From Naegleria gruberi (taxonomy: Eukaryota): a stretch of DNA of 64,000 bases. The stretch lies in assembly GCA_000004985.1 (NCBI GenBank), contig GG738856.1; one strand, 5' to 3'. Position 1 is the stretch's first letter; each line of letters starts with the position of its first letter. The notes beneath the pieces are model-generated. The model was given only the letters and a program-made list of their open reading frames with translations, was not told the origin of the DNA and made no database searches. Below, piece by piece: positions 1 to 62,739 of the stretch. The position numbers and the translations under genes were made by a program.

Positions 1-172
1 TGGTCTCTCCATAATCATATTGTAAATAACACTGTCAACTGAAGTCAAATCCTTCTTGAATAATTTCATGATGAGTTTGATGAAATCATCAAAATCGTTT
101 TTGGCCATTTCAGATGCACAGAACAAGAATGTTTCACTAATGAATTATAAGATGAAAACTATTCGAAATAAC

Positions 173-3100
173 TTACGTATAGAATGGATCAACAATAAAT
201 TGTTGAATTCTTTCCTTGAAAAATTCAAGCTTGTTCTTGGAAAATGGACCAGTTGCTCTCACTCTAAAATCACTGACAACAGATGTGTTAGCCCAGTGAC
301 TTGCTACAAGATATTGTTGGAAAGAAGTGTGACTGAAACGATATTTACCATCTCCACATGCCATAATTAATGGGAATTTACCCGAGTCAATTCTAGGTTG
401 AAGAACTTTCCATTGGTTTTGGAATTCTCCATTCGAAACTGCATGGAAAATCCAATCGTCACCCTTGGAAACTAAATCATTTTCTGCAGTGCTGGTAAAC
501 AAGCCACCATCACTGGTATTATTGAGAGATAATTTTCGAGCAACTTCAATAGAATTAGTAAAATCTTGAGAACTGAACGTATGTCTTCTCAATTTGTGTA
601 AAAAGATGGACACTTTTCTCAAGAATTCAATGAGGGTAATTTGCATTCTATTGACTTTCTGCTGATCTGACACCAACTTGGTATAGTGAAGTCTGGTAAT
701 TGTTTGGAGAGCATTTTGATAAATCTTGGATCTGATTTCTGGAAGGGAGCCATTTGTCTTGTACTCTTGAATGATGAGTGAAAGTAAAAGTGGATTCTTT
801 GCCAATTCTCTGTACTTTCCCTTGATTGCTGAAAAGAATAAACTATCCACAATGTTACGTTTCAGAGCAATCTTCTTTTGAATATCAAATGTTAAATTTT
901 CCAAAGTGGCAGCAATAAAGGAGGAGAAGAATTTTCTTGTTTTAGAATCAGCTTCAATACCACCCAATCTAGTTGTAACCATAAGTCCATTAGAGTTAGA
1001 AACTTCATCTGGAGGTGGGAATTGTTCAACCAGAGATAGCAAGAGTCTCTTCTTTTGTTGAGGAGAAGCAATTTCATCAATACCATCGAAAATGAAGAGA
1101 ACTCGTTGTTCCTTCATGGCTGTCATCAAGTAGTGTTCCAAAAGATTGACATACCTCACACTGTTACCATTGGCACTATTTTGCATACTGGCACCAGCAC
1201 TAGCTCTAATACATTTCAAACGGAAATCAGCATCGGCATTTCTCAAACTAGCAAAAATACCAGCAGGAATGAAGAGTGGAATGAGAATTCTGTCACCAGT
1301 GACTTGAGAGGATTTACGTTGCTCAATCTTCTTCTTGATGAATCTTGTGACCACCATCTTGAGCATTGAGGTCTTTCCTGATGAAGCATTTGAAGTAAGC
1401 AAGAATCGAAGATTATTAGAAGGAAGTGAAGAAATGAATTCTGCTCCATCTTCATGGAAAATATTCTTGTACTCTTCATATTCAACTTTTTCGTCTGTTT
1501 TACCATTCGAAAGTTCTTCAGAAAAATCTTCAATAATGTGAACTCTTCTTTCATTGTCGAATTCCTTGTCATCACTGGCTTGTGTAGTGGTGGTAGTAGA
1601 TGCACTGTTTGTTGAAGAGCCAGTTCCAATCAATTCATCAACCCAGTTCTTTCCATGTTGAATCAAATGAAGAGGAACACAATGCTCATCCACATATAAA
1701 GTTTCCTGACTGATTGGCTCGACAAACAGTCTTTCATTTTGTAAAATCATGTCCAAATATTGGCTTTCTGCTGTTTCATAAGCTTGTTCAGAGAGAGGTT
1801 TCAAATATTCTTCAATATCCCAATTCGATTCTCCAATAACAAGACAATTTTGAATCAGATTGAGTACGTCCAAGTTGAAAGGAAAACCTGCCTTTCTAAC
1901 TAGATTGTTATAACTGAGAACGGTAACAATACCTGTCCTTTCATCGTCCACAATGTCTACATCAAATCCTTGATTGGCTGTAATCATCTTCTTGAAACCT
2001 CTTTCAGCATTCTTTGGAATTTTGTCAAAATCCAAGTATTCTTGGTAAGCTTGTCTAAAGTTTGCCCAGGTTACTTCTTTCATTTCTGACCAACCACTTT
2101 GTTTCCAAAATTCTCTGGCCTTGTCCAATTCAATAGATTTGAGTGGGTCTCTAATTTTCATTAATCTAGCTCTTTCCAATTGTCCTAAAAGACTTGCCAA
2201 TTCTTTAACATCATTATCTATGAATTCATCACTTTTGGATGGTGTAGAAGGTGTATTTTGATCTATTTTTGGTATCAGTTCAGAAATTTCCTTATCCAAA
2301 TCACTAATAATTTCCTTAGCTTCTGGTCTATCGACTGGGTCAATCTTTAAACATCTGTCAATAATTCTAACTAAAACTTCATCATTATTCTTCAATCTTT
2401 GCATGATATATTCTGGATTATTTCTAATTTCATTGATTAAATCAGGAATTTCACTTTGGGAATACAAACAAAGCAATTGGAATAATAAAATACCCAAAGA
2501 CCAAATATCCACTGCCTCATCATAACGCTTACTTTCAAGCATTTCTGGGGCAATATATTTCATTGTACCCATGACAGTGTTCATGAGTTTTTCATCTTTC
2601 CTAGTGAAACCAAAGTCACAAACTTTGATCATTTGCTTATTCTTTGTAAGTAAAATGTTATCTGGTTTGATATCTCTGTGTGCAATTTTCTGACTGTGCA
2701 TATATTCCATACATTTACAAATTTGTTTAGTCCAACTCTTGATTATATCAGTTTCGAATGGACGTTGTTCACGTTGTCTTCTGGAAATTTCTAATTCCAA
2801 ACTTCCATCAATACAATATTCCATAACAATATAGAAACGAGTTTGTTCAACAATTGATCCCTTCTTTTTCTCTTCAAAAATGTAGTGATGTTTCACAATA
2901 TTTTCCTGTTGCAAGGTCAATAAAAATTGTAAATCTCTTCTTGCAGTTTCTATTAAAGAATTAATTTCAAATCAATTGATTGAGGAGAAAAACTTACCAA
3001 TTTCTTCTGGATCTTCACAAACAACCAACTTGATGGCCACGTTTGCATCTTCTCCCTCGAGTGGATTTTTGAGCTCTGCAGAAAAAACTGCTCCTTCATT

Positions 3101-3710
3101 ACCTCCACCAATCTTTTTAACAATTTTGAAATCTTTTAATGTTCTTTGAGTACTATTCTCGATTGTTGTACTATTCACAGTGGCAATGTCTTTCTTTTCT
3201 GTTGTTGTTGTTGTACTGTCACTTTCTTCACTACTATTGGAAGGTTTAGTTTCAGATGAAACCTCTGTTTCTTCTGGTTTCTTCTCGGTTGTATTAACTG
3301 TATTATTGTTAGATATGGTATTAGATGACTCGGATGATGATTTTTCAGTTTGAATTTCCTCTTTCGTCTCGTTATTTTCAGTAGACGAAACCTTTTCCAT
3401 CCCATTATTATTGATATCGCCATTATTATTATTGATAGCAGCAAGACTTCCATTCACACTACCACCCACCAATGAAGATGATGACGATCCGGCCGAATTA
3501 TTCATAGTCGGACTGACAGCTGTCGATCGAGGTGTTGTTCCTCCAGCACTATCAGCACCACCTCCACCTCCAACACTTCCATCATTACTTCTTGGTGAAT
3601 ACAATAGACTATTACTATTCCCTCCTCGTGGTGTTGTTGGTGAGGCCTCCACTTGCACCTTGTTGGAAAAACTCTCGTGCCTCTTGAGCGCGTTAAAAAT
3701 GCTATCAGAC
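173..3710 (-). CDS. Ser/Thr protein kinase fused to a NACHT-type P-loop NTPase (STAND). Two exons, 2998..3710 and 173..2949, with intron 2950..2997. It may continue past position 173 through a further 40-nt intron toward the window start.
   Basis: Kinase motifs: GxGxxG-like IGGGNEGAVF, VAIK, HRDIKPDNILL, DFGFT, APE-like. Downstream Walker A SSGKTSMLK, NACHT-type Walker B VLFIFDGIDE, and the winged-helix motif FSHTSFQQYLVA. GTAAGT donor and TAG acceptor join EEI|ETARRDLQ in frame. ATG at 3710 is preceded by an A-run. Confidence 0.7.
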
Positions 3711-3920
3711 ATTTTTTTTTTTTGGATGATGAAAATTGCTGTTGTTGATGGGAGGATGAGAATGAACGAATGAGGAAGGGACAAGAGACGAGATTTCAGT
3801 GATGTTTGTCTGAGGAAGTTCCCTGCAAAGAGTTTGAGAGAAGATTTTTTATGGTGGATTCGTGTGAGTTTTTTTTCGATTTGTATACAATGGTTGATTG
3901 TAATAAATTAAAGGATTTTA

Positions 3921-4943
3921 TTAAGGGGAAGCAAAATTAAATTGAAGGGAAGCATTTGGAATGGTAGGAGGGAGAGGTGGAGCCATTCCAATTGGATGTG
4001 CTGATATTCCAGATAAACTTCCAAGGGTTAACCATCTGAGCAAAAGAATGAGACCAATCATGGCCAAATAAATATAAAAGAATTTCAATGCCAAAAGTGC
4101 AATATTCAAAATAGCTTTGAAAGCAGACTCTAAAAATGTATCTTGTTGACTTGGTGTCATTGTAACAGTTCCAACTTTGAGTTGATTTTGTAATTGCATT
4201 TCAATCCAAGTTGATTTGATTAGTGAAATGTAGAGTTGTTGATTTTTGATAATTCTTGATGGAGAGGTGTTTTGTACATTGTTATTTACAGAATTTTCTC
4301 TTAGTGAGGTTGAAATTTGGTTAGTTTGATTCGAATGAGTTTCTAATAAATTATTTGAGGTATTGTTTTGAGAAATGGATGGAGGAGTGGAAATGGTAGA
4401 ATTCTCTGATAATGTTTGATTGAGGGTCACAATCGTAAACTGTTTCTTATTTGATTTGATGAGCAAAATGACTTGTTCATCAGTTTTATGGGAAAGAACG
4501 AAGAATGCAAAAACAAACAATCCAATCGTTGTAATTATCAATCCAATTCTTCTCTCATGAATCAAAACCATACTATAGTTGACAATTTTTTGGATAAAGG
4601 TGTTGCTTGATTGAGTAGTTGTTATCGTTTGATTATCATTGTCCATTTCCCTATTAGGAATTGATTTCAAAAAGGATTTTATCTTGTCCAGAACGGAAAC
4701 AAGACATAAACACAATACTAAACATAAGAGTATTGTCAGGTGATTAGGACCTGTCGCCGATGATGTTGTTTCTAAACCTGTTTCATCCACACTATTTGAC
4801 TTTCTATTACAAAAACTAAAGAATTGAAAGTTATGCGAAATTAACCAATCATACACCATTGAATGTATGGAAAATGGTGGTATGGCAGTCATTGAACAAA
4901 ACCACGACGATTCATCCATTACAATTTGATTATTACTGTTCAT
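3921..4943 (-). CDS. Hypothetical N/S/T-rich multi-pass membrane protein (3-4 hydrophobic helices)
   Basis: Long ORF with hydrophobic segments (LTILLCLVLCLCLVSVL, GLIITTIGLFVFAFFVL, ILNIALLALKFFYIYLAMIGLILLL). No recognisable family. First ATG at 4943; the ORF track start is a TTG. Confidence 0.4.
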   Translation of the reverse strand: MNSNNQIVMDESSWFCSMTAIPPFSIHSMVYDWLISHNFQFFSFCNRKSNSVDETGLETTSSATGPNHLTILLCLVLCLCLVSVLDKIKSFLKSIPNREMDNDNQTITTTQSSNTFIQKIVNYSMVLIHERRIGLIITTIGLFVFAFFVLSHKTDEQVILLIKSNKKQFTIVTLNQTLSENSTISTPPSISQNNTSNNLLETHSNQTNQISTSLRENSVNNNVQNTSPSRIIKNQQLYISLIKSTWIEMQLQNQLKVGTVTMTPSQQDTFLESAFKAILNIALLALKFFYIYLAMIGLILLLRWLTLGSLSGISAHPIGMAPPLPPTIPNASLQFNFASP

Positions 4944-6213
4944 TTTCAAATCTCAATGCTCGGAATCTATTTTTCAGTCAACTGCTAATTTGTCCTTTCG
5001 TTTTTATCAATTATTATTAATAATAAATAACCCTGAGAGAGCTCTTCAGAAGGAATGCTGTTGTTTTTTTTAAATATATCATCATGCTGGTTGTTGGCTT
5101 GGATTGATTCTTACCAAACTTCCAACATGCCTCAAAATGGCACTCCAACCAAGAATTGAAAAATTGGCGCGATAAATGGAAGATCCAAAAAGACCTCACT
5201 TGCCGAGCGCTGAAGGAGGAGAGAAATTGCTTCCGCTCTTAAGGAAAATCCACGCTTTATCTGCATCAGCAAGATGATGTTGTTTTTGAGCTTGTGTTGA
5301 GAAGGTTATGAATTGGCAGTTGACAGATATTGGAAAAAGTCCGTCTTATTGAAATATAAATTTCGCTCGTGGAAAATGAGGGTGTAATAATGTGAGAGTG
5401 TAAATTACCGATTAGTTCTGTTATCGATTCTCAATTTCATCACCCTGAATGCATCACTAGAAAATGATTGTCATTTGAGTTGATTAGTTTCGGAATTGAT
5501 TTCAAATTTTTCGAAAGGACATTAGAGAATCACCTCATGCTCACTAATCTCTCTCAGCAAATGTAACCTCATAATTAATCTGGGGATGACGCTTATTACT
5601 CAAAGTGCGATGATCAGCGCACTAAAATCGTGGCTTTTGGATTTTGATTGTTTTTTAATATATCCTTAAAGGAATGAGAAGTTTTCTTTGATAATCTCCT
5701 GTAGAATCTGTGATTTACAGTAAATTGAGAATGACAAAGCTTTTTCTGGGATTCAAACAAGGTCGATTTATAAATATTTAAAACAATTAAATCGGAACAA
5801 TTAAATAAGAGATAATATTTGTAAAATTATTTAGCAGCCAGAATGGAAGAGTCCCCTAATTATCTTTTTAATTTCCGAAATCTGTGGTTGTCGATCATAT
5901 TAATTTTTAACACGTTTATTCATCAGAAATACTGGCGTTCTCTCTATCATTTCTATAGAATTCGGGTAGCTCTTCTACGGGAATGAATGTAAGGGTATGG
6001 ATCTTCAATTCTATTGGAATAGAATTCATGAATTGAGTCAAAGTAGGTAGTGATCCCTTCTTTCCCGATGAGACTACTGTTTTAAAATCATCGATGCGAA
6101 TTTCCCATTTTTCAAAGTACTATTAATGCATAGTGATTATGTCAAAGTTCAGTGACTAGAAATTTAAGAGAAAAAGCCCAGGAAAAGATGCCAAATTACC
6201 TTAGAGTGTGAAT

Positions 6214-6975
6214 TTATTGTAACCAAGATTGACAAGTAGAAACAGCGTTAGGAGATGTAGTTCCAACTGGTGGGAATCTCAACCATTCTCTCATGGAAAC
6301 TTGTGAAACACCCAAAGTTGGATCGTGCATTGGCATGGTAGCAACACCTTGAGCCATACCAACTCCCCATTGTGGATGTTGCAAATCAAAGATAATAGTT
6401 CTGGCATAATCTAAATTTTGTTGAGCATCTCTCCAACCATCAATGAAAGTTTGTGAGCTAACTCTAATTGGAGCAGTGAATTGAGTATTATTGGATTTGT
6501 AAAAGAATGAATAATATCCGAATTGAGCAATAGCATCCTTAGGAATTGGATAATTAGTGAATGGATCAGTCTTGGATGAATCCAAAGCAACAACTGTCAA
6601 CATGTCAACATAAACCTTAACAAGTGGACTTCCAAAGAATCTACGGTTTGATGTAACAGCACCAACAACTGAATATCCTTCAAAACTACCCTTTTCTAAT
6701 CTGAAACTTGTTGGTAAATTGGAAGAATTGGTAAAATCAATGCCGAATCTTGTCTTGAAAAATTGCAAACCTTCATTCAAACGTTGAGCTGTGAATCGTT
6801 GAGTATTTAATGGATATTCTAAACGTTTAGGGATTAATTCAAAGGAAACAGCATCATCATATAAAAGTGTCAATTCAGCAATAAAATTCTTGCTTGGATC
6901 ACAAGTCACTTGTCCATATGTGAAATTTGCAAGAATTAATAATATTAATACATTAACAAGAAGAATAAACTTCAT
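6214..6975 (-). CDS. Secreted protein with a signal peptide; paralogous to the N-terminal domain of the 7653..9593 protein
   Basis: N-terminal signal peptide MKFILLVNVLILLILANFTYG. Shared motifs with the neighbour: GLQFFKTRFGIDF~TSFFRNQYGLDIS, FGYYSFFYKSNNTQFTAP~FGFYTFFWKVNGTSVFP, GMAQG~GMARG. Confidence 0.55.
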   Translation of the reverse strand: MKFILLVNVLILLILANFTYGQVTCDPSKNFIAELTLLYDDAVSFELIPKRLEYPLNTQRFTAQRLNEGLQFFKTRFGIDFTNSSNLPTSFRLEKGSFEGYSVVGAVTSNRRFFGSPLVKVYVDMLTVVALDSSKTDPFTNYPIPKDAIAQFGYYSFFYKSNNTQFTAPIRVSSQTFIDGWRDAQQNLDYARTIIFDLQHPQWGVGMAQGVATMPMHDPTLGVSQVSMREWLRFPPVGTTSPNAVSTCQSWLQ

Positions 6976-7652
6976 ATTGTACAAGAGGAGGAAGGAGAGG
7001 TGGTTAATAATTTACAAGAGGAAAGAAAGACCTTTCGTTTAGAATCGTTTTTTTTGTTCTGAGATTAGTTGTGTGGTGAACACTTCATTGTGACCGACAC
7101 GTTTGACAATTAAAAAGATATTTAACAACAGAATTGAGAAGTAGACTGCCTTTATTTATTTTGAAACCAATAAGAATCTTCTAATGACCAAAAGCCCTTC
7201 ATAAGATATTGTAAAGGTTACATGTTAATTATTGTAATGTCACCAATTATGAAGAAGGTACTCTTAATACATTACTTGATTGAGTTAATTGGGTAAGCAT
7301 CTCTTTTGAGGAAGGTAATATCTTGGGAAAATGTTTTACAAAAGTGCCAACTTGCCGGCTGTCATTTTTTTGAAATGGCAGTTGACAACCATTAAGAAGG
7401 TATTTAATGACCCGCTAATCTCATAGATCCTTTTTCTTTGCGCATGTTCCAACGTATTTCACAATCGAACCTTCAAAACCAGAGTCATTTCCAATAACAA
7501 AAAAAATCAAAACTAATCTCAATAACCTTTAGTTCACACTTTCTCTCTGTATCATTATTATTATCCACAAAGTGTTCAATTTACTCTAATTGATTCACTG
7601 CCCTGTACACTTCCACCTTGTAAAATATATTTCCTTGTAACAATATTAAATA

Positions 7653-9593
7653 ATGACCTCCAACAATTATTGTAAATTAACCATCATGATGTTTTTCATG
7701 ATGATATTATTCATGGCCTCTCTTTCCCATGCCTACTCTCCAACCACCGAAACTGATCCAGATGAATACGATACTCAATTCTCCCTCTCTCTAGTTTCGA
7801 ATACTTTAGGTTCTATTGAACCAGGTCCAGTAACCAGATATCCAGATGCCTACGAAAAGGCCACAAGTTTCTTCAGAAATCAATATGGTTTAGATATTTC
7901 TGCTGATGGATCTCGTCTCCCAGTTGGTGCTCAACTCGTTACTGGTTCTGCCTCAGCTTACGTTATGAATTATGCCAAAGTTCGTGGTTATCCAATTTTG
8001 GCAGGTTCACAAGATGTTGGAGTTCATGATGATACTATTAGTATTGTCCTTTCTCAACCAGCTGTTGTTCATGGAGCTTATGGTGGTAAGAATGGAACTT
8101 TTGTCGATGGAAATTCTGTTTTAATTTTTGGTTTTTATACTTTCTTTTGGAAAGTTAATGGAACTTCAGTTTTTCCAAGATCTACCTTTGCAGGAATGAT
8201 GCCAATGAAGATTGGTCCAGATGGTTCAATGGTTGTTGATTGTGAATTGACTTCTAATATATTTGGAAAGGGTATGGCTAGAGGAATTATGCTCATTAGA
8301 ATTAATCCTCTAACTGGTCAACCTTACACAACCATTGTTAGTTCACATACTTACCAAATGTCAAAGACTGATACATCTCCAAAATGTGCTGTATTGACAA
8401 CTGAAAAGGACATTCACAATGATGACTTTGTTGTCAAGTGGAATAATGTCTTGTTGAGCGTCATTCGTGATTTGAAAGTTGCTCCACCAATTGCCTCAAG
8501 ACAAATGGCCATTCTTCACACTGCCATTGATGATGCCCTTGGTAATTGCAGAAGATTGAGATATACTTCTAGAAAGTGTACTCGTGCTACTTTGGTTTCT
8601 GTTATTTCATATGCTGCTCATCGTGTCTTGTCCAATTTGTATCCAGCTCAAATTGATTGTTTCAATGGAGCTTTGAAGAGAGCTTTGGAATGTAATGAAT
8701 GTAAGACTGTTCCTAGAACTGAATTGGTTGCCATCGGTAAATCAGGTTCTTTGGCAGCTGACAGAGTTTTGAGATGTAGAGATAATGATGGTAGTACTGA
8801 TTTTGTTGATTATAATTTCTCTAATGGACCAATGTCTTATCAATCCCATGCTCCAAACTATGTCAGAGTTCCATTGTTACCTCAATGGCCAAATGTTGAA
8901 CCATTTGGTGTTCAAGATGTTGATTCTTTCGATCAAGGTCCTCCACCACAAATTGGAACTCCTGCATTCGAAAGTTCATACGATGAAGTTTTCACATATG
9001 GTAAGAATGATTCTAGTGTGAGAACATTTGAACAACGTAGAATTGCCTTGTTCTGGGCTGATAATGCTGGTACAAGTACTCCACCAGGTCACTGGAATAT
9101 CATTTTACAATCCATCATTAGAAAGATGAATATTGTTGATACTTTCAAGATTTCTGGCATGTTTAAGGTTTTGACTAGTTCATTGGCTGATGCTGCTATC
9201 GTCTGTTGGTATCATAAATACAAGTATGATGCCTTCCGTCCAGTTACTGCCATTGCCAACAGAAATAGAAATACTAATTGGTTCCCATTTTTGGCAACTC
9301 CTCCATTCCCAGAATATTCTTCAGGACACTCAACATTTTCTGCTGCAGGTGCCAGAGCTTTAAGTTTATTATTGGGAACTGATGATATTTCCTTTGAAAC
9401 CATTTCTGAAGGTTATGTTCATCATGTGAGACAGTTCAGTAAATTGTCAGATGCTGCAAAAGAAGCTGGTAAATCAAGAATCTATGGTGGTATTCACTTT
9501 GAATATGCCAACCAAGCTGGTTATACTTCAGGTGTTGCTGTTGCCAATGCTGTTTACAATCAGTTGTGTAGAAATGGTTCATGTCTCGTATAA
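7653..9593 (+). CDS. Secreted PAP2-superfamily enzyme (acid phosphatase / vanadium-haloperoxidase-like) with an N-terminal domain homologous to the 6214..6975 protein
   Basis: Signal peptide. PAP2 motifs KYKYDAFRP (Kx6RP), PEYSSGHSTFS (PSGH), SRIYGGIHFEYANQAG (SRx5Hx3D-like). Single 646-aa ORF starting at an ATG. Confidence 0.7.
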   Translation: MTSNNYCKLTIMMFFMMILFMASLSHAYSPTTETDPDEYDTQFSLSLVSNTLGSIEPGPVTRYPDAYEKATSFFRNQYGLDISADGSRLPVGAQLVTGSASAYVMNYAKVRGYPILAGSQDVGVHDDTISIVLSQPAVVHGAYGGKNGTFVDGNSVLIFGFYTFFWKVNGTSVFPRSTFAGMMPMKIGPDGSMVVDCELTSNIFGKGMARGIMLIRINPLTGQPYTTIVSSHTYQMSKTDTSPKCAVLTTEKDIHNDDFVVKWNNVLLSVIRDLKVAPPIASRQMAILHTAIDDALGNCRRLRYTSRKCTRATLVSVISYAAHRVLSNLYPAQIDCFNGALKRALECNECKTVPRTELVAIGKSGSLAADRVLRCRDNDGSTDFVDYNFSNGPMSYQSHAPNYVRVPLLPQWPNVEPFGVQDVDSFDQGPPPQIGTPAFESSYDEVFTYGKNDSSVRTFEQRRIALFWADNAGTSTPPGHWNIILQSIIRKMNIVDTFKISGMFKVLTSSLADAAIVCWYHKYKYDAFRPVTAIANRNRNTNWFPFLATPPFPEYSSGHSTFSAAGARALSLLLGTDDISFETISEGYVHHVRQFSKLSDAAKEAGKSRIYGGIHFEYANQAGYTSGVAVANAVYNQLCRNGSCLV

Positions 9594-11773: not shown

Positions 11774-12370
11774 TTAATATTCATATTCAACTTCTTCATT
11801 TATGAAGCCTCTTTCACTGACGTAAATACCGTCCAAGAACTTACGAATATCCTTGTTCTTAACGAGGGTAGCAAGATGGATAGCGGCAGCAGAGTTGGAG
11901 ACAAGTTCCAAATCATTACCAGTAATTTGAATTTCGTCCTTTTGACCAGTAACTTCAACAACACAACCTTCTCTCATGTCGACCTTTCTGACTCTCTTTT
12001 CACCCAAGAAGTTTCTGATTTCAATGTTCTTCTTGTCGTCAGAAATCTTACAGTTGACAGGGAAATGCGCATAGACGAATCTCATCTTGTACTTGTATCC
12101 CTTGGTAACACCAACAATCATGTTTTGAATGTGGGTAGCAACAGTTCTAACGAGAGATGATTCTCTTCTGTTACCGTGGAACTTTTGAACGACAACTCTA
12201 GTGAAGTTATTTTCTTCAGTTGGTTGTTCAACGAAGACGTCGAGTTGAACGTGTTGGAAGTTTCTATGCAAAGTACCTCTTGGACCAGTAACGGCGACAC
12301 GTCTAGCCTTGACAGTGATGGTAACACCCTTTGGGACCTTAACAGTTTCGACAGTGTTCAAGCTCTTCAT
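11774..12370 (-). CDS. RPL9: 60S ribosomal protein L9 (uL6); a probable 5'UTR intron lies just upstream (GTAAGT at about 12400, acceptor just before the ATG)
   Basis: High similarity along the full length to eukaryotic RPL9 (GPRGTL, YKMR.VYAHFP, EIRNFLGEK, ELVSNSAA, KNKDIRKFLDGIYVSE). Confidence 0.85.
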   Translation of the reverse strand: MKSLNTVETVKVPKGVTITVKARRVAVTGPRGTLHRNFQHVQLDVFVEQPTEENNFTRVVVQKFHGNRRESSLVRTVATHIQNMIVGVTKGYKYKMRFVYAHFPVNCKISDDKKNIEIRNFLGEKRVRKVDMREGCVVEVTGQKDEIQITGNDLELVSNSAAAIHLATLVKNKDIRKFLDGIYVSERGFINEEVEYEY

Positions 12371-12757
12371 TCTTTGTGTAAGCAGGTGGTAAGTAAAAAA
12401 CCGAGAGGATGACAACTTACTTGTTTTGACGATTTTTTTTTCAACAAACTTTGTTTAATTTTTGGGTGACTAAATCTTTACAATGAAAAAGTTTGCTTGG
12501 ATTTTTGAATGGATTTTTCATTATGAAAATAAAATTGCACTTTGAAGCAGGAATGACTTCATAAATTTTCATTGTTCGTTCATCACTCTCCACCTTTTTG
12601 TGTTTGATAATTCATGATAATTTCCCAACAACAATAACTTCTCCGCATCATCAATATCTACAACAACAATATGAACATGTATTACTAACGGAATGGAGGA
12701 ACAAATAACCGACATTTGGTGTTAAATCAACTAATAACATTAAAATACAATAATAAT

Positions 12758-13828
12758 TTATTCTTCTTCACCATCATCAACAACATTACTACTACTAGCT
12801 CCGTTGTTATTATTACTATTACTATAGGCTTGTGTTTTTTGTACGAGTTGGTAAAACATGTTCAAATTGAGAGCCATGATGGATTGATTTCTCTTCGATT
12901 CATCTTCTCCTTCATCAGTAATAATCCTTGACTTTAGCTGGCCATCCTTCTTATCTAATTCCAAACTCACTTTTCCTTCCTTCACTAGAAAAGAAAAGTA
13001 GAAAATGTTTTCAATAGTGTGACAGAATGATGTTGGATCAACTACAATATCGGGCAGTGAAAGCTGTTGTTCATTTCCCTTTCGTTTCTTTAAATTACTT
13101 TTCATTGTCTTGAAAAGTTTTCCTACAGCCCTAGTGGTAGCATCCTCTTTAGATTGCTCATTAAATTCCTCTGCTTGTTTTTCTTCTGTTACTTCATCTC
13201 TTGTTCTCTTTGTACGTTCCTTCTTCTTTCTTTCCTTTCTTTCAGTTGACAAAGGTCCATGCATAAATGTCACTGTTGGTGTTCGTTTAAAGATGTGTGT
13301 AACACTACTTCCAACACTATTCCAATCGATATCATAGGTAGCATCCTCCGAATCATCACGACTTGATCTTGTTCCTCCTCGTTGTTTTCCAAACTTTTCA
13401 TCCAATTTGATCAAGAAATCTGTTGGATCCCATTCTTTTCCTAGTGTAATTGCTTTCAATTGTTGAATACTATGTTTAGATAATTGTTCAAAAAGTGCTG
13501 ATTCCAAGGCTCCTTCTCTAGCGTGTACAATGTTCTTTTCCATTGCTTTCATTTTGCCAAACATGTGAATGATTTCCTTATCACCAGGCTTTGTCAGTTT
13601 TTCAATATTCTTGTCAGCCTCGTTGACAGAGGCTATGATTTTGGCTCTCAACTCTCGTCTAAAAGCATCTGTTTTTTTAGTATCATCATCAACTTCTTCC
13701 CCTTCCACCTCCGAAGAATGATCATCTTGTTGTGATTCCTCCTCTTCTTGTTGCTCTTCTTCCTCTTCACTTTCTTCCTCCTCCGAAGAATGTTCTTCAA
13801 CAACTTGTTTCCTCTTACTTTTTTGCAT
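12758..13828 (-). CDS. NSE4: Nse4 / NSMCE4 (SMC5-SMC6 complex kleisin subunit)
   Basis: C-terminal Nse4 domain DPTSFCHTIENIFYFSFLVKEGKVSLELDKKDGQ...RNQSIMALNLNMFYQLV matches the NSMCE4 motif SFSQTVENIFHVSFIIRDG...QGIIALSYRDWEEIV. Acidic N-terminal tail. Confidence 0.7.
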   Translation of the reverse strand: MQKSKRKQVVEEHSSEEEESEEEEEQQEEEESQQDDHSSEVEGEEVDDDTKKTDAFRRELRAKIIASVNEADKNIEKLTKPGDKEIIHMFGKMKAMEKNIVHAREGALESALFEQLSKHSIQQLKAITLGKEWDPTDFLIKLDEKFGKQRGGTRSSRDDSEDATYDIDWNSVGSSVTHIFKRTPTVTFMHGPLSTERKERKKKERTKRTRDEVTEEKQAEEFNEQSKEDATTRAVGKLFKTMKSNLKKRKGNEQQLSLPDIVVDPTSFCHTIENIFYFSFLVKEGKVSLELDKKDGQLKSRIITDEGEDESKRNQSIMALNLNMFYQLVQKTQAYSNSNNNNGASSSNVVDDGEEE

Positions 13829-16912: not shown

Positions 16913-18268
16913 GATGGTGCACAAAACAGTGATAACCGAACAAAGTAAGTATCCAAATACACTACTGATATCAACAAGCCTTTTTCAGAATGGTTCAAAG
17001 ATTCGCCAACAGGTGGCCCTTGTGGAAGATATGGTCACAGATGTGTAGTATATGAAGATACAATGTATTTGAATGGAGGATATAATGGAAAGGAAAGAAT
17101 GAAAGATACATTTGCATATAATTTAGGTAAGTGAATCAAGCCTTCAAATTCTAATTGACTTGTAACAGAAAAGAAAGTATGGAGAGAAATTGAAAATAAG
17201 GGAGAAGTGCCTTCCGAAAGAGATTGTCATTCAGCAGTACTTTACAAACACTATATGGTTATATTTGGTGGAGGTGATGGTTTCAATTGGTTAAATGATA
17301 TGTACATGTTCGATATTAAGAACGAAGCATGGAAGAAGATTGAACCAAAAGGACAAGTACCAAGTGGAAGAGCTGGTCACTCTGCTAATGTTTACAAAGA
17401 TAAGATGTACGTATTTGGAGGATGGAATGGTAGAAGAACTTTGAATTGTCTCTATTGTTTCGATTTCCTCTCAGGATATTGGAGCAGAGTTGAAACAAGT
17501 GGTGTTCCTCCTCAAAGCAGAGACTCTCATACTTGTAATCTGGTTGGTGATAAGCTCATTGTTATTGGTGGTGGTGATGGTAAACAAAGACTCAATGATT
17601 TACACGAACATGATATCATTTCTGGTAAATGGAGAAGACTTTCATACATTGGTGAGGTGAATGCTGGTAGAGCTGGTCATGTGAGTGTAGTATTTGATGG
17701 TAAAATCTACATCTTTGCAGGTGGTGATGGTTCTAATTGGCTCACAGATGTCTATGAATGTGATACAACTTGTATGAAGTGGACTCTGATAGAAACAGCT
17801 GGTACTAATAATGAATCGAATATTGCCCCAGGTTGCTATGGTTTGTCTGCAGTTCTCTACAAGACAAGTATGGTAATCTTTGGCGGTGGTGATGGTAAAT
17901 CGTGGCACAATAAGATTTACGAATTCAAATTGGGTGATGATAAGAGAAAGAGAGAAACTAAGTCAAAGCTCTTCAATGAGGCTAGATATAACAAGCTGAC
18001 AGATATTTGCATTGTTTGTGGTGATGAAGTTTCATCCACAATAACAACTAGCTCAATGATGTCTGCCAAAGTTGATGACGCCTCATACTTCAAGCCAAAG
18101 AGAGCTCTCAAAGAACCATCTGTCTCCTCACTCCTTAGTACAAGTACAGTGACGAGGAGCTCGTTAGATATTGCTTCGATTATTAGAGAAAGCGATATTG
18201 GTTTTAGAGAATTCTTAGAATTTGAGAATGCTCTTATTCAAAACTCTAGAATGGAAGATGACAACTAA
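16913..18268 (+). CDS. Kelch-repeat (beta-propeller) protein; 3 exons: 16913..16948, about 16988..17139, 17183..18268
   Basis: Five or more kelch-like blades (HSAVLYKHYMVIFGGGDG, GHSANVYKDKMYVFGGWNG, SHTCNLVGDKLIVIGGGDG, GHVSVVFDGKIYIFAGGDG, SAVLYKTSMVIFGGGDG). GTAAGT donors and CAG acceptors. TATATAAATA sits about 210 bp upstream. Confidence 0.7.
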
Positions 18269-21457: not shown

Positions 21458-24400
21458 ATGCAGACATTACCTAATACCCAATACAAAACATGTCAGAGAG
21501 CATGTTTAGTCATGTTTATAATGCTATTCATATTATCTGCATGTATTGTCGAATGCTTTCTAACAGTAAACATTACTTATTCGATTTCCACACTTGTTGG
21601 AAATGATGATAATAGCAAAACAATGGACGGATTGCCAGGTGTTGGCACTTTTGTAGATGGACCTACTGGATTATTCTGGCAAAATGGAATCTTGTTCTAT
21701 GCAGGTAAGTTTCTTGTTGCATGTTGTGTGAAAAATTAAATTGAAATCGAATAGAAAGAAAACACATTAGAAAGTTGGAGAATGGAACAGTAACTACACT
21801 GGCAAGTGGTTTGTCTACACCAAATGGATTATTTGCTCTTAATAACACTATTTACTTTGCCGAAACTTCAGCTAATAGAATTAAGAGAATCAACAGTGAT
21901 TTGACAATTGACATTGTGAGTGCAAACAATACTTCAGGAGGATATAATGGTGATGGCATGCTTTTTAACGCAACATTCTTTGATCAACCAGTCAGTTTAT
22001 GTATTGGTAGTGAAAATATAATTTACATTACTGATTCGAATAATTACAGAATTAGAAAGGTAGATACAGATGGAAAGGTTAAAACAATTGTTGGTGCAGG
22101 ACTGAATGGTTTTAATGGTGATGGTCTCGGTGTTGCCACATACATAACGTAAGTTTTCACATGCACTTTTCATTGTTAACTTTCGAATAGTTGGGCAACT
22201 TCTATTAAATACTGGACGAATGGCTTGAAATCACTATTATACTTTGTACAGTTGAATGAAGGAACCATCAGAACACTAGATCTGAGCACTAACTTGATTA
22301 CAACCATTGCTGGAATTAGGGCAGCTGGAACTTTTGATGGAGATGGAAAATCAGCTTTACAAACTTCATTCTTTCGAATGACTGATGTTACAATATCAAA
22401 AAAGAATGGAAATATTTATGTTACTGATAAGAGCAATCAAAGGATTCGTAAAATTAGCAGTTCTACCAATTTGGTTTCGACAATTGCAGGAAATGGATCC
22501 ATTGGATTTGTTGACTCAATGTCAAATGCCATCAATGCTTCATTGTTTAATCCAATGTATTTAGTTTTGACTGATAATGATGAAATAATCTTCTCAGAGT
22601 TTGGAAATAATAGAATTAGAAAATTAACTCCAACCTGTCCAGAAGGTTACATGTTAGATCTTTACAATGACACTTGTAAAATGTCTTGTTATGGAAAGGC
22701 GTATAATGATCCCAATGTTTGTAGTTCAAGAGGCATTTGTGGTTCTCCTGATAATTGTATTTGCTCTGGTGATTATTTTGGACTGGAATGTGGATCTCAA
22801 TGTGATGCTTTTTCACTGCCAACTGTCAGGTCTGGATCTAAATGTTTGCCATTTTGTTACTCATTGATGGGAAAGGTAGATTTGATATTATCAAGAGCTA
22901 AAGCTATGGTCAATTCAAATGTTACTCTACATGCGAGTATCAATGATAATTGCCTTTCAGAAGTCAAGCAATTTTTGAATATTTCTTACATGATTACAAA
23001 ACCAGATAATAGTACAGACACAATTAGTACCAACGATATGATGATCATCTTGAGTATGAATCAAATAGGCGTCTATACTGCTTCGGTTAAAATCGAATTG
23101 AATTCAACCATCATTTTCATTTCGAATAACTCAATTTCAGTAACTTGTAAAACAAAGGAAGATTATCTTTCAGGTGACTTGACCAAGATTCCAGTTGATG
23201 AACTAATTGATTTAGCTAACTCCCCAGATACTTATCAACAAATTGGAAACTTGACTGTTCAGTCAATTATGAAATCACTTGCTTCATCACTTTCTACTCA
23301 AATTAACCAGCAATTAGATTTACCTTCTCTTGCCAAGTTGACCAATGCGTTAGTTACTGTTTCTACAAAAAAAACATATATTTCAGAGGATGTTATTGTT
23401 GACTTGAATAATGCAATGTATAATGTTTCATTCTCAGTTGACAAGTTTAGTTCTAATTCGTCTAATTTCCAAGTTTTAGAGAGAATTGTGACCTCAATAG
23501 TTGAAGGTTTCACCAATTGTTATTCAACATCAAACCAAACATCACCTTCAACTGTCAACAATTTGCTCAATCGAGTTGTTTCTATGGTTTCCAAAACATC
23601 CAACAAGTCAGACGATGAATTTACAACAAAATCATCAGAATTTACAATTAATGTGAAAAGAAACATTTTAACTCAATTTTTCAATTCCACACACGTCAAC
23701 TTGTACTCACCAAAGAATCTAAGAGATTCCACTATTTCAGTTGCAACCATTTCATTCACAAATCCTCTCAAAATGGTCAACTCATCAAAGGATGCAGAAA
23801 ATATTTTAACATCAATTCCAATTACAGAGCAACTCTTCAATCAGTCGAATGTAAATATTAGTTTCAGTATTTCACCAATTGTTGAAATTCACTATCTCAA
23901 AAATGGTCAAGTAATCAAGCTGGTCAACCTTGCCGATCCAATTATCTTCCAATTTATCACTCAAAATATTTCAACACTTAACATGACTAACTACAAGGTG
24001 AAATGTATGTATCTACATGAGGAAACAAACAAATGGTTGTCAGATGGCTGTCAATCTTCATTTGATTCAATGTCATCAGTTGTGACCTGCTCTTGCAATC
24101 ACACGACTAAATTTTCAAGTTTCGTAATGAGAGAAACTAATCTCACCTTATACTCTGAACATCAATTAGAAACTGATATTTCCTTAGCAGTTTCTGGAAT
24201 AACAGTCTCGTCAATATTCATCTTATGGATTATATTGATTATTATTGGCTTAATCTTTACAAGAAATACGAATCCAAGAAAGTCAAGATGGATTATTCCT
24301 TATCTTTGCCTTACTTCACTCTTAATTGACCTCAGTTTCTCAGATATTGTTTCGAATGCCCTCTTCCTCTCCAAGGAAATCAAATCTTCCGATATTATCA

Positions 24401-25533
24401 GATCAGTTTCTGTTATAGTGACATCAGTTTTCTACATTCTGGCCATTTTCAATTATCTCATTCTCCATTTGAGATATATCCTATTCAGATACACATACGA
24501 AATTATGTTTTCTATTGCAGTCAAGAATGAACAGCAAAAGATTGGTAAATGGATCAAAATTGTAAATAGCAAAGTGGCAGTTTTTGTGGTCAACTTGATT
24601 GGAGCTGTTGTCATTGTGATTTACTTTGTAATTTTCACTGCTTTGGTTAATACTGGATATATTCAAAAAGAATACTCAAAGATAATGTCAGCATCTTTCT
24701 TTGTGGTGGTTTCTTTAATTTATTTAATACTTTTAATGCTTGCCATATTTGATTTCTATATGGAAAATAGACATGTCAGTAAGGAGGAGAAATCGACAAG
24801 TGACAAGAAGAAGATTAGCTTATTTTTGGATATCTACAAGTTTATATTTGTGAATGATGTGTTGGTATTCAGAAAGGAGTTGATTTTTTCATTCATTTCG
24901 TATTTATTCTTTGTTTTGAACTTTGCTTTGGGTTTCTCCTCATTGGATAATCCGACTGTGACTTCATTTGCTGAGGCATCCTATGCATTTGGTGTTGTAT
25001 ACGAGTTCTTTAACATTCTGGCGTTTGGAGGTTTCGTATTCCTTGTGAATTTTTGCTCAATTAATTGGAAACGTAGAAACTATTCTAATCAAGATGATGA
25101 GAATGAAAATAGAGAACTAGATATTGTACTTTCCAATCCACAACTTTTGAAAATATTTGAAGAATATTGCATGAGAGAATTTTCTTTGGAAAATATTTTG
25201 ATTTTCAAGAAACTTGAATCTTTACAAAAAAGTGAACTTTCACCAATTGACAACGAGTCACTTTTTGAAGAAATGAAAAAGGATTACTTTATTAATGGAG
25301 CAGAATTTGAAGTCAACCTTTCCTCCTCCATGAAAAAGCAATTTATTCAACTTTGTTCCGATCTGAAACATGTAGAAAGGACTCAAGTGGATGAAATATT
25401 GGAACGTTTGAGGGATGACATTTATATGAACTTGAGTGATACATTTTCTAGATTTATTTTCACCAACGAATATGCATCTATTAATGAGTGTATAGAATTG
25501 AAAGAAAAAACAGGCCAGTCCTTTACAAAATAA
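21458..25533 (+). CDS. Large multidomain receptor: signal peptide, NHL repeats, Cys-rich EGF-like module, S/T/N-rich stalk, GAIN/GPS motif, 7 TM helices, C-terminal RGS domain. At least 3 exons with introns at about 21707..21766 and about 22149..22249.
   Basis: NHL repeats (IYITDSNNYRIRKV, IYVTDKSNQRIRKI, IIFSEFGNNRIRKL). EGF-like Cys cluster CSSRGICGSPDNCICSGDYFGLECGSQC. GPS motif VVTCSCNHTTKFSSFVM immediately before 7 hydrophobic helices. RGS motif FEEYCMREFSLENILIFKKLE...DYFINGAEFEVNL. Confidence 0.7.
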
Positions 25534-31253: not shown

Positions 31254-31541
31254 NNNNNNNNNNNNNNNNNNNNNNNNNNNNNNNNNNNNNNNNNNNNNNN
31301 NNNTTTTCTCTGAGAGAATACAAATTGGACTGATTTCTCCTCTTTACTCTACCACAGGATTTCATATTCTAACGAACGATGAATAAACAACTGATTTTTA
31401 AGCTTTTTGATGGGCATTTTACAATTAATCTTATAGGCAAATCATAAAATCACAGCATTTATCTCACTTTATTAAGCAAAAATTCCAAAATTTCAAAATT
31501 GTGAATTTTCTTCTAGTTGTAAAAAATTGAGTCGTCTTTGC

Positions 31542-34900: not shown

Positions 34901-35600
34901 NNNNNNNNNNNNNNNNNNNNNNNNNNNNNNNNNNNNNNNNNNNNNNNNNNNNNNNNNNNNNNNNNNNNNNNNNNNNNNNNNNNNNNNNNNNNNNNNNNNN
35001 NNNNNNNNNNNNNNNNNNNNNNNNNNNNNNNNNNNNNNNNNNNNNNNNNNNNNNNNNNNNNNNNNNNNNNNNNNNNNNNNNNNNNNNNNNNNNNNNNNNN
35101 NNNNNNNNNNNNNNNNNNNNNNNNNNNNNNNNNNNNNNNNNNNNNNNNNNNNNNNNNNNNNNNNNNNNNNNNNNNNNNNNNNNNNNNNNNNNNNNNNNNN
35201 NNNNNNNNNNNNNNNNNNNNNNNNNNNNNNNNNNNNNNNNNNNNNNNNNNNNNNNNNNNNNNNNNNNNNNNNNNNNNNNNNNNNNNNNNNNNNNNNNNNN
35301 NNNNNNNNNNNNNNNNNNNNNNNNNNNNNNNNNNNNNNNNNNNNNNNNNNNNNNNNNNNNNNNNNNNNNNNNNNNNNNNNNNNNNNNNNNNNNNNNNNNN
35401 NNNNNNNNNNNNNNNNNNNNNNNNNNNNNNNNNNNNNNNNNNNNNNNNNNNNNNNNNNNNNNNNNNNNNNNNNNNNNNNNNNNNNNNNNNNNNNNNNNNN
35501 NNNNNNNNNNNNNNNNNNNNNNNNNNNNNNNNNNNNNNNNNNNNNNNNNNNNNNNNNNNNNNNNNNNNNNNNNNNNNNNNNNNNNNNNNNNNNNNNNNNN
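31966..35600. other. Assembly gap (run of N). Shorter gaps at 31254..31303 and 63783..63832, and single n at 26656 and 63890.
   Basis: Literal n characters. Confidence 1.
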
Positions 35601-62560: not shown

Positions 62561-62739
62561 ATTTTTTTTTCTTTTGTTTGAAATTAAGAAATTGAAAGTT
62601 ATTTTTGTAATGTTGAATTCAATTCCATAATTTACCACTTCAAAAACCTAACTTCCAATGTTTACTACCATGCTAGTTTCCTCCTGTCCTGATGTGGCCA
62701 AGGTTATGAAATATAAAGCAATTGGAAATGCTTTCTGAA

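What the first reader, a model, noticed from the sequence alone, without database searches (positions are those of the whole stretch)
173..3710. Protein kinase fused to a NACHT NTPase (STAND / NLR-like architecture)
The N-terminal part is a low-complexity S/T/G-rich region plus a complete Ser/Thr kinase domain. It is followed by a NACHT-type Walker A (GKTS), a Walker B hhhhDGhDE (LFIFDGIDE) and the winged-helix FxHxSFQxY motif that is diagnostic of NACHT. I saw no obvious C-terminal sensor repeats in the roughly 280 residues after it. Kinase-NACHT fusions are a signature of innate-immunity / self-non-self STAND proteins in fungi and some protists.
Basis: partly seen in the sequence, partly recalled or inferred. 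Interest (0 to 1): 0.55.

Follow-up and report, generated by a model that had tools for sequence, protein, structure and literature searches.

The report
Naegleria kinase–NACHT–HEAT signalling protein
This is a real, intact Naegleria gruberi gene that joins an active-looking Ser/Thr kinase to an NLR-type (NACHT) ATPase switch and, just beyond the window edge, a HEAT-repeat sensor; it belongs to a conserved, uncharacterised family of heterolobosean amoebae and is a new member of a known kind of protein.

Summary
The gene is on the minus strand. Its ATG is at 3712, with two tiny GT..AG introns at 2997-2950 and 176-137, and the reading frame runs off the window at base 1. One uninterrupted 915-codon exon carries the kinase from subdomain III onward, a linker domain and the whole NACHT module, so the fusion does not depend on splicing.

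The window is N. gruberi NEG-M. Full-length orthologues exist in N. fowleri, N. lovaniensis and Willaertia magna, and relatives in Acrasis.

The sensor repeats are as conserved as the ATPase (64% vs 66%) and show no DNA tandem repeats. This looks like a conserved one-to-one signalling gene, not a diversifying immune receptor. The likely mechanism, ligand-gated NACHT oligomerisation activating the kinase by proximity, is inferred.

The parts
2998..3712 (-). Exon 1. It holds the start codon (3712-3710), the S/N/T/G-rich low-complexity N-terminus (aa 1-190, nt 3712-3143) and the kinase N-lobe up to VAIK and the start of helix C (Gly loop nt 3109-3092; VAIK nt 3040-3029).
   Evidence: The junction peptide ...DPEEI|ETARRDLQFLLTL aligns without gaps with N. 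fowleri, N. lovaniensis and W. magna proteins.
2950..2997 (-). Intron 1, 48 nt, GTAAGT...TAG, phase 1.
   Evidence: It restores the kinase frame. An intron lies at about the same place in an unrelated family member, L002.
177..2949 (-). Exon 2, a single open frame. It holds the rest of the kinase, the Cbl-like EF-hand linker domain, the NACHT nucleotide-binding domain, helical domain 1 and the winged helix.
   Evidence: ORF 173..2920 of 915 aa. Pfam Pkinase covers aa 196-454 at E=4.5e-53.
2303..3127 (-). Ser/Thr protein kinase domain (aa 196-454, interrupted by intron 1). HRDIKPDN is at nt 2680-2657, DFG at 2617-2609 and APE at 2551-2543.
1658..2218 (-). Family-specific middle domain (aa 483-669). 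Its N-terminal half is a Cbl_N2/STAT-linker-type EF-hand-like pair (FW..GW..V.W..F..AY ... RGfKK ... GFPF). Its end (YLDMILQNERLFVEPISQETLYVDEHCVPLHL) is the pre-NACHT strand segment.
   Evidence: - Family profile against PDB sequences: Cbl at E=0.014.
- Pfam Cbl_N2 is hit by 7/14 members, best 6.9e-5.
- Every short 'mid-only' database hit is a fragment of the same architecture.
179..1462 (-). NACHT module (nucleotide-binding domain, helical domain 1, winged helix; aa ~735-1162). Walker A SNASSGKTS is at nt 1393-1367 (K764). Walker B LFIFDGIDE is at 1099-1073. Sensor-1 LMVTTR is at 985-968. NPLLLSL is at 796-776. YRFSHTSFQQYLVA is at 343-302 (H1112).
137..176 (-). Intron 2, 40 nt, GTAAGT...TAG, phase 2.
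   Evidence: It is identical in L001. The junction peptide DPFY(T)ETFLFCASEM aligns with orthologues.
1..136 (-). Start of exon 3 (aa 1163-1208), cut by the window edge. In the near-identical contig L001 it continues for about 600 more codons: helical domain 2 and then about 520 aa of HEAT_2 repeats, ending in a stop. The full protein is about 1,810 aa.
   Evidence: Pfam HEAT_2 scores E=2.5e-23 in 6 stretches. The profile hits designed PBS-HEAT 'alphaRep' proteins at E=2e-32.

Best explanation
The locus encodes a roughly 1,810-residue STAND (NLR-architecture) signalling kinase of Naegleria gruberi. Its domain order is: disordered S/N/T-rich N-terminus, catalytically competent Ser/Thr kinase, Cbl-type EF-hand-like linker domain, NACHT NTPase (nucleotide-binding domain, helical domain 1, winged helix, helical domain 2), and then about 16 HEAT_2 repeats.

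The most likely mechanism follows solved NLRs and is inferred, not shown here.
1. In the resting state the NACHT holds ADP, clamped by the winged-helix His (H1112), and the HEAT solenoid keeps it closed.
2. Binding of a ligand to the HEAT surface allows nucleotide exchange and oligomerisation of the NACHT modules.
3. This brings the N-terminal kinase domains together, so that they activate by trans-autophosphorylation and phosphorylate downstream targets.

The sensor is as conserved as the ATPase across Naegleria and Willaertia. The ligand is therefore probably invariant: an endogenous signal or a conserved microbial pattern, not a fast-evolving pathogen effector.
For: **Shown here.**
- One ORF carries kinase plus NACHT.
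- Pkinase scores E=4.5e-53 with all catalytic motifs.
- NACHT class: 13/14 family members hit Pfam NACHT, best 3.4e-16. The family profile's best PDB sequence hits are NLRP3, NLRP5, NLRP7, NLRP2 and NLRC4, matching Walker A, Walker B and the winged-helix motif.
- hhalign against a Nostoc NACHT-HEAT protein gives prob 98.9, E=1e-17.
- HEAT_2 scores E=2.5e-23 in the continuation.
- Walker B D860/D863/E864, sensor-1 R and the winged-helix His are conserved in the family.
- Full-length orthologues with the same order of domains exist in N. fowleri, N. lovaniensis and W. magna. An Acrasis kona partial protein and environmental contigs carry kinase plus NACHT.
- Conservation is uniform across domains, and substitutions between strains are 6 synonymous to 1 non-synonymous.

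**From established knowledge.** ADP-locked autoinhibition and ligand-induced oligomerisation in NLRC4, NOD2 and NLRP3. Proximity activation of kinases.
Against: - No experiment or expression data were available, so the mechanism rests on analogy.
- The window protein alone is below Pfam's NACHT cut-off.
- In the three Naegleria species the first Walker-A glycine is Ser (SNASSGKT), whereas it is Gly in Willaertia, Acrasis and the others. This could weaken nucleotide binding.
- The ligand, the substrates and the oligomeric state are unknown.
- The C-terminal third was read from a 99%-identical metagenome contig, not from the window itself.
Confidence: 0.6

Rival explanations
1. It is an innate-immunity or self/non-self receptor in the fungal or animal NLR sense. 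The HEAT repeats would recognise pathogen molecules (from giant viruses, Legionella or chlamydiae of amoebae), and the kinase would trigger a defence or death response.
For: - It has the tripartite effector-NACHT-repeat architecture.
- Its nearest relatives outside the family are NACHT proteins with TIR, SIR2, EAD and FGE-sulfatase partners, which are typical of bacterial conflict systems.
- Pkinase is a listed effector class for fungal and bacterial NACHT proteins.
Against: - Orthologues are full-length across genera, and HEAT conservation equals NOD conservation.
- There is no repeat homogenisation at DNA level, unlike the hypervariable fungal NLR repeats described in PMC4986451.
- Only about two family types per genome were seen among named proteins.
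- No paralogue cluster lies in the window.

A receptor for a conserved microbial pattern remains possible and overlaps with the best explanation.
Confidence: 0.2
2. The NACHT module is a degenerate, nucleotide-independent scaffold. The protein would simply be a large scaffolded kinase, comparable to non-immune NACHT-clan proteins such as NPHP3 or TANC, with the HEAT repeats serving as a docking platform.
For: - The first Walker-A Gly is replaced by Ser in all three Naegleria species.
- 9/14 members also hit NPHP3_N.
- Strong conservation is typical of housekeeping scaffolds.
Against: - Walker-A GK[T], Walker-B DGxDE, sensor-1 Arg and the winged-helix His are all retained.
- The first glycine is present in Willaertia, Acrasis and environmental members.
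- Conservation of the catalytic residues argues for a working switch.
Confidence: 0.12
3. The kinase domain is not the output. It would be an integrated decoy or sensor that is targeted by pathogen effectors, as proposed for some plant and Sordariales NLRs.
For: PMC12258605 proposes kinase decoys in fungal NLRs. One W. magna paralogue has HKN/NFG in place of HRD/DFG, which makes it a likely pseudokinase.
Against: - Here the kinase is N-terminal, the usual effector position.
- It is the best conserved domain (79% to N. fowleri).
- It keeps every catalytic motif in all orthologues.
- No close stand-alone 'guarded' kinase was identified.
Confidence: 0.05
4. The fusion is an artefact: two adjacent genes, or a pseudogene.
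For: None found.
Against: - A single 915-codon ORF spans kinase subdomain III to the winged helix.
- The same arrangement appears in annotated proteins of three other species and in independent contigs.
- Between strains, 6 of 7 substitutions in exon 2 are synonymous.
Confidence: 0.01

Closest known systems
Uncharacterised orthologues: N. fowleri FDP41_004050 (XP_044561468.1, 1948 aa), N. lovaniensis C9374_000651 (1947 aa), Willaertia magna ABK040_000099 (KAL9652529.1, 1738 aa)
   Same: They have the same domain order and length class, with 68%, 68% and 52% identity. The sequences align without gaps across both splice junctions, and all motifs are shared.
   Different: - The N-terminal low-complexity tract differs in length and sequence.
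- Databases call them only 'hypothetical protein' or 'protein kinase domain-containing protein'.
- No NACHT annotation or literature was found.
Fungal NLRs with an N-terminal Pkinase domain (Dyrka et al. 2014, PMC4986451; PMC12258605)
   Same: Kinase, then NACHT, then superstructure-forming repeats. Pkinase is one of the 12 recognised N-terminal classes in fungal NLRs, and HEAT-type repeats occur in fungal NACHT NLRs.
   Different: - Fungal NLRs are members of large, variable repertoires, often with highly similar, polymorphic repeats. This gene is a conserved orthologue with old, diverged repeats.
- It carries an extra Cbl-like EF-hand domain.
- Common descent of the fusion was not tested and is unlikely given the taxonomic distance.
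Bacterial NACHT proteins (bNACHT, Kibby et al., bioRxiv 10.1101/2022.07.19.500537), especially cyanobacterial NACHT-HEAT proteins such as Nostoc BCD64_22380
   Same: The NACHT module is clearly homologous (hhalign prob 98.9, E=1e-17 over 301 columns). The C-terminal repeat type is the same, HEAT_2/HEAT_PBS. Kinase and HEAT are both listed as partner domains of bacterial NACHTs.
   Different: - This is a eukaryotic gene with spliceosomal introns.
- It has a kinase and an EF-hand-like domain at the N-terminus.
- An antiphage role is not applicable.
- The direction and timing of any transfer were not tested.
Animal NLRs NOD2, NLRC4 and NLRP3 (with the NOD1/2-RIPK2 pathway as functional analogue)
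   Different: - Sequence identity is only 10-17%.
- The sensor is HEAT, not LRR.
- The kinase is fused in cis rather than recruited through CARD-CARD contacts.
- There are no death-fold domains.
Cbl tyrosine-kinase-binding domain (Cbl_N2 EF-hand) and the STAT linker domain
   Different: - No SH2-like sheet is visible after it in the model's secondary structure.
- Ca-binding loop residues are not conserved across the family (by eye).
- Pfam scores are below the cut-off.

Membership tests
NACHT NTPase (STAND class) | Walker A P-loop, GxxxxGK[ST] | tested here: met
   SNASSGKTS at aa 758-766, with GK[T] intact. The first Gly is Ser in the three Naegleria species and Gly in Willaertia, Acrasis and environmental members.
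NACHT NTPase (STAND class) | Walker B of the NACHT type, hhhhDGhDE: a small residue after the Mg-binding Asp and two further acidic residues | tested here: met
   LFIFDGIDE. D121, G122, D124 and E125 are invariant in the 14-sequence family alignment. The NB-ARC form, hhhhDDhW, is absent.
NACHT NTPase (STAND class) | Sensor-1 Arg (T[ST]R) and a winged-helix domain with the conserved His motif FxHxxFQE[YF] | tested here: met
   LMVTTR, with family consensus IIvTSR. YRFSHTSFQQYLVA aligns to the NLRP3 motif YSFIHMTFQEFFAA.
NACHT NTPase (STAND class) | Score at or above Pfam PF05729's gathering cut-off | tested here: inconclusive
   - Window protein: 22.7 bits (full protein) and 25.3 bits (NOD region only), against a cut-off of 26.7.
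- Family member P0005: 31.1 bits over 3-161/167 of the model.
- 13/14 members hit at E<=0.01, best 3.4e-16.
- 34/40 more distant relatives hit NACHT.
NACHT NTPase (STAND class) | The NOD fold is closer to solved NACHT NLRs than to NB-ARC or other AAA+-like NTPases | tested here: met
   - Foldseek: the top 17 hits are all NLRs, and NRC1 NB-ARC is at rank 45.
NACHT NTPase (STAND class) | Nucleotide binding or hydrolysis and nucleotide-dependent oligomerisation | not testable with these tools
   This needs biochemistry.
NLR-type immune receptor (functional class) | Tripartite effector, NOD and repeat architecture | tested here: met
   Kinase, NACHT and HEAT_2.
NLR-type immune receptor (functional class) | Lineage-specific expansion and a diversifying or hypervariable sensor domain | tested here: not met
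   - HEAT is 64/51% identical to the N. fowleri and W. magna orthologues, against 66/51% for the nucleotide-binding domain.
- No DNA tandem repeats are present.
- No paralogue lies in the window.
- Only two family types per named genome were seen.

The genome-wide count in N. gruberi was not possible.
NLR-type immune receptor (functional class) | Demonstrated role in defence or allorecognition | not testable with these tools
   No literature was found on Naegleria NACHT proteins.
Eukaryotic protein kinase (ePK), active Ser/Thr type | Gly loop, VAIK Lys, HRDxKxxN, DFG, APE and subdomain XI Arg | tested here: met
   Pfam Pkinase scores E=4.5e-53. The motifs were located. PDB sequence hits assign no specific subfamily: PKA, NEK1, Aurora, MST and PKR all score about 1e-26.
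HEAT_2 / PBS-lyase-type HEAT repeats | Multiple HEAT_2 units above the Pfam cut-off | tested here: met
   82.6 bits against a cut-off of 27.7, in 6 stretches, E=2.5e-23. AlphaRep proteins are hit at E=2e-32. The sequence comes from L001 (99.2% nt identity to the window); only the first 46 residues of this exon are in the window.
Cbl_N2 EF-hand-like domain | Sequence match to PF02761 and an EF-hand pair fold as in the Cbl TKB domain | tested here: inconclusive
   - Pfam: 14.2 bits against a cut-off of 22 for the window protein. 7/14 members hit, best 6.9e-5.
- Profile against PDB sequences: Cbl at E=0.014.
ROCO / LRRK2-type kinases (considered) | A Roc (Ras-like GTPase) domain followed by COR, next to the kinase | tested here: not met
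   The P-loop domain is NACHT. LRRK2 Roc appears only as a P-loop-only match at E>=0.29. No Roc or COR Pfam hits were found.

The most novel reading that the evidence does not exclude
Heterolobosea would carry an ancient, vertically conserved 'NOD-to-kinase' pathway built into one polypeptide. In this reading a bacterial-type NACHT-HEAT module was joined to a eukaryotic Ser/Thr kinase through a Cbl/STAT-type EF-hand-like domain. That would be an independent invention of the logic animals achieve with NOD1/2 plus RIPK2. It would possibly sense a conserved microbial or viral pattern in amoebae that host giant viruses and intracellular bacteria. It would also place the Cbl/STAT-linker EF-hand module in Discoba, far outside the lineages where it is known.
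Probability: 0.15. Interest if true: 0.6.

Novelty: new member of a known kind. Interest (0 to 1): 0.35.

Why it matters
- It documents an NLR-architecture protein with a cis-fused, apparently active kinase in Discoba, a deep eukaryotic lineage seldom included in NLR surveys.
- Here the architecture is a conserved single-copy-like gene, not an expanding repertoire. This is a useful counter-example to the habit of equating 'NACHT + repeats' with arms-race immunity.
- The orthologue in the brain-eating amoeba N. fowleri is labelled only 'hypothetical protein' or 'protein kinase domain-containing protein'. The domain assignment given here (kinase, Cbl-like EF-hand, NACHT, HEAT) could be transferred to it directly.
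- A lineage-specific regulated kinase is a conceivable drug or probe target.
- None of this changes the current picture of STAND proteins.

Tried and rejected
- **Word-index protein searches were unreliable here.**
  - One search found only the gene's own metagenome copy.
  - One search found the orthologues but missed that copy.
  - (NOD region only) found nothing at all.
  - So I cannot say whether N. gruberi has an annotated model for this gene, and I make no 'unannotated' claim.
- **Searches that found nothing.**
  - A paper search for the metagenome project PRJEB11402 found nothing.
  - An Rfam scan of the window found nothing.
  - phmmer of the window's NOD region alone against PDB gave only a spurious PPR hit.
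  - Literature searches for Naegleria plus NACHT or STAND found nothing relevant.
- **The first family profile needed redoing.** It was swamped by HEAT repeats, so a NOD-only alignment was made.
- **The afdb50 fold library was unavailable.**
- **No paralogue in the window.** tblastn of the full protein against the window found none.
- **Alternatives considered and rejected.**
  - ROCO/LRRK2 membership: no Roc-COR.
  - An SH2 domain after the EF-hand, as in Cbl and STAT: the model shows helices and two short strands only. This was not formally tested.
  - Canonical Ca2+-binding EF loops: ligand positions are not conserved in alignment A4.
  - Two separate genes: excluded by the single ORF.
Full report
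**What is in the sequence**

The feature is a gene on the minus strand.
- The ATG is at 3712-3710.
- Exon 1 (3712..2998) is followed by a 48-nt GTAAGT..TAG intron (2997..2950).
- Exon 2 (2949..177) is followed by a 40-nt intron (176..137).
- Exon 3 (136..1) is still open at the window's left edge.

The window therefore encodes 1,208 residues of an incomplete protein. Exon 2 is a single 915-codon open frame. It contains the kinase from subdomain III onward, a middle domain and the whole NTPase module, so the kinase-NTPase fusion does not depend on any splice prediction.

The predicted junction peptides align without gaps with annotated proteins of three other species. The first 190 residues are low-complexity: S 20%, N 13%, T 13%, G 8%.

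**Kinase**

Pfam Pkinase matches aa 196-454 at E=4.5e-53. All catalytic signatures are present: GGGNEG, VAIK (K228), HRDIKPDN (D331), DFG (D350), APE and DxWSxG.

Sequence search of the PDB gives PKA, NEK1, Aurora, MST and PKR all near 1e-26. This is a generic Ser/Thr kinase with no clear subfamily.

**NTPase class**

- Walker A SNASSGKTS (aa 758-766)
- Walker B LFIFDGIDE (856-864)
- sensor-1 LMVTTR
- NPLLLSL
- the winged-helix motif YRFSHTSFQQYLVA (1108-1121)

On its own the protein scores 22.7-25.3 bits against Pfam NACHT, just below the 26.7 cut-off. I therefore tested the assignment in four independent ways.

1. *Exhaustive sequence search.* A phmmer search of 1.84 billion representative proteins found 186 relatives. 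Of 14 family members aligned over the NOD region, 13 hit Pfam NACHT, best 3.4e-16. Of 40 more distant relatives, 34 hit NACHT, with partner domains such as TIR, SIR2 and EAD7.
2. *Family profile against PDB sequences.* The best hits are NLRP3, NLRP5, NLRP7, NLRP2 and NLRC4. They align at Walker A, Walker B and the winged-helix His motif.
4. *Profile-profile comparison.* Against a Nostoc NACHT-HEAT protein, hhalign gives probability 98.9 and E=1e-17 over 301 columns.

The NTPase is NACHT-class.

One oddity is that the first Walker-A glycine is serine in the three Naegleria species. It is glycine in Willaertia, Acrasis and the environmental members.

**The missing C-terminus**

An 8,076-bp ENA metagenome contig (L001) carries the same gene at 99.2% nucleotide identity. 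It extends past the window edge.

Exon 3 runs about 600 codons further to a stop, giving a protein of about 1,810 residues. That region scores HEAT_2 at E=2.5e-23 in six stretches. It matches designed PBS-HEAT 'alphaRep' proteins at E=2e-32.

They are of the HEAT type and lie outside the window.

**The middle domain**

Residues about 483-669 have no significant Pfam hit but are conserved throughout the family. Every short database hit to this region alone turned out to be a fragment of the same architecture, either kinase C-lobe plus middle domain or middle domain plus Walker A.

The evidence for its fold is as follows.
- A separate model has pLDDT 73. It shows a helix-strand-helix pair topology.
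- At sequence level the family profile hits Cbl at E=0.014.
- 7 of 14 members hit Pfam Cbl_N2, best 6.9e-5.

I read the N-terminal half as a Cbl/STAT-linker-type EF-hand-like domain. The Ca-binding positions are not conserved.

The last 35 residues (YL.MI...D.iFvDPIsQE.L.vD.HC.PL) are the strand segment that precedes the P-loop. A bacterial-looking relative has a similar stretch there (by eye).

**Organism and family**

Two window ORFs are exact matches to N. gruberi NEG-M proteins XP_002679810.1 (RPL9) and XP_002679811.1. The window is therefore N. gruberi.

Full-length orthologues with the same domain order are:
- N. fowleri FDP41_004050, 1948 aa, 68% identity
- N. lovaniensis C9374_000651, 1947 aa, 68% identity
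- Willaertia magna ABK040_000099, 1738 aa, 52% identity

More distant members of the same family, with kinase, NACHT and (in full-length members) HEAT, include:
- N. lovaniensis C9374_012500
- W. magna ABK040_007994, which has HKN/NFG in place of HRD/DFG and is probably a pseudokinase
- an Acrasis kona partial protein
- several environmental contigs

One of those contigs, L002, has 27% GC. It also has tiny introns, the first at about the same place as intron 1 here.

Named members are all Heterolobosea. Databases call them 'hypothetical' or 'protein kinase domain-containing'. I found no paper on them.

**How it probably works**

The anatomy is that of a STAND switch: N-terminal effector, NACHT, C-terminal repeats. 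By analogy with solved NLRs, I infer the following sequence.
1. An ADP-bound closed state is held by the winged-helix His and the repeat domain.
2. A ligand binds on the HEAT surface, triggering nucleotide exchange and oligomerisation.
3. The clustered kinase domains are activated by proximity.

Conserved Walker B acidic residues, the sensor-1 Arg and the His, together with intact kinase motifs in all orthologues, fit a working switch and a working kinase. None of these steps was or could be tested here.

**Immune receptor or not**

Architecture alone suggests immunity. Kinase and HEAT are both catalogued partners of NACHT in fungi and bacteria. The evolutionary pattern is different from known immune repertoires:
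- Identity to the N. fowleri and W. magna orthologues is kinase 79/67%, middle domain 72/52%, nucleotide-binding domain 66/51%, winged-helix region 71/57% and HEAT 64/51%. The sensor is no more variable than the engine.
- The HEAT-coding DNA has no tandem repeats, unlike the homogenised, polymorphic repeats of fungal NLRs.
- Two strains differ in exon 2 by six synonymous and one non-synonymous change.
- No paralogue lies in the 64-kb window.

I therefore favour a conserved signalling role with an invariant ligand. I leave 'receptor for a conserved microbial pattern' open.

**Verdict**

The immune connotation is unsupported.

This is a new, undescribed member family of a known kind of protein, not a new kind. 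Interest is modest (0.35). The points of note are its phylogenetic position in Discoba, the cis-fused kinase, the unusual linker domain, and the direct transfer of annotation to N. fowleri.

The main limitations are:
- The C-terminal third comes from a near-identical contig, not from the window.
- A genome-wide paralogue count and the annotation status in N. gruberi could not be established, because the word-index searches demonstrably missed known hits.
- The mechanism is inferred.

Noticed in passing
window 44249-60598 (+): A single uninterrupted 5,449-codon ORF encodes midasin (MDN1/Rea1). Pfam finds AAA_5 in 7 stretches (E=8e-124), Midasin AAA lid domains and a C-terminal VWA_2. It is a giant intron-less gene.
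   Followed up: partly
window 22225-25533 (+): A 1,102-aa ORF has a GPS (GPCR proteolysis site) motif (E=6.7e-7). By eye it then has a multi-span hydrophobic block and an RGS-like C-terminal tail. This is an adhesion-GPCR-like receptor with a possible built-in RGS domain in Naegleria.
   Followed up: partly
window 7653-9593 (+) and 6214-6984 (-): A secreted-looking 646-aa protein ends in a PAP2-superfamily domain. By eye, its N-terminal ~230 residues resemble the neighbouring 256-aa ORF on the other strand, which has no Pfam hit.
   Followed up: no
window 61814-62638 (-): A Ribosomal_S3Ae-family ORF (E=9e-30) has a divergent N-terminus compared with the usual eS1 sequence. It may be a divergent paralogue, or the ORF start may be wrong (possible intron).
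   Followed up: no
window 31966-35600 (also 31254-31303, 63783-63832): Runs of N (assembly gaps) are present. The mechanical ORF list reports fake 1,273-1,554-aa ORFs across the large gap.
   Followed up: yes
L001 (ENA ERZ929261, contig k127_597297) against window 1-5458: A metagenome assembly holds an 8-kb contig 99.2% identical to N. gruberi NEG-M. In-frame indels occur in the low-complexity N-terminus of the kinase-NACHT gene (GGGGG against GGGG; NNNNGDINNNG against NNNNDDINNG). A close N. gruberi strain was therefore present in that sample.
   Followed up: partly
P0016 (Willaertia magna KAL9646116.1, 2009 aa): This paralogue of the family has HKN and NFG in place of HRD and DFG, so it is probably a pseudokinase. 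It keeps Walker A/B and HEAT repeats.
   Followed up: partly
L002 7200-11876 (Logan ERR14790941, 27% GC): An unidentified AT-rich eukaryote carries a complete kinase-EF-like-NACHT-HEAT gene with introns of about 34 and 26 nt. The first is at about the same position as intron 1 of the N. gruberi gene.
   Followed up: partly
window 17207-18268 (+), 60604-61599 (-), 38629-39549 (-), 11774-12415 (-), 12758-13828 (-): These are ordinary neighbours: a Kelch propeller, an LRR protein, a CN_hydrolase, RPL9 (XP_002679810.1) and an NSE4-like protein (XP_002679811.1). None has an obvious functional link to the kinase-NACHT gene.
   Followed up: yes
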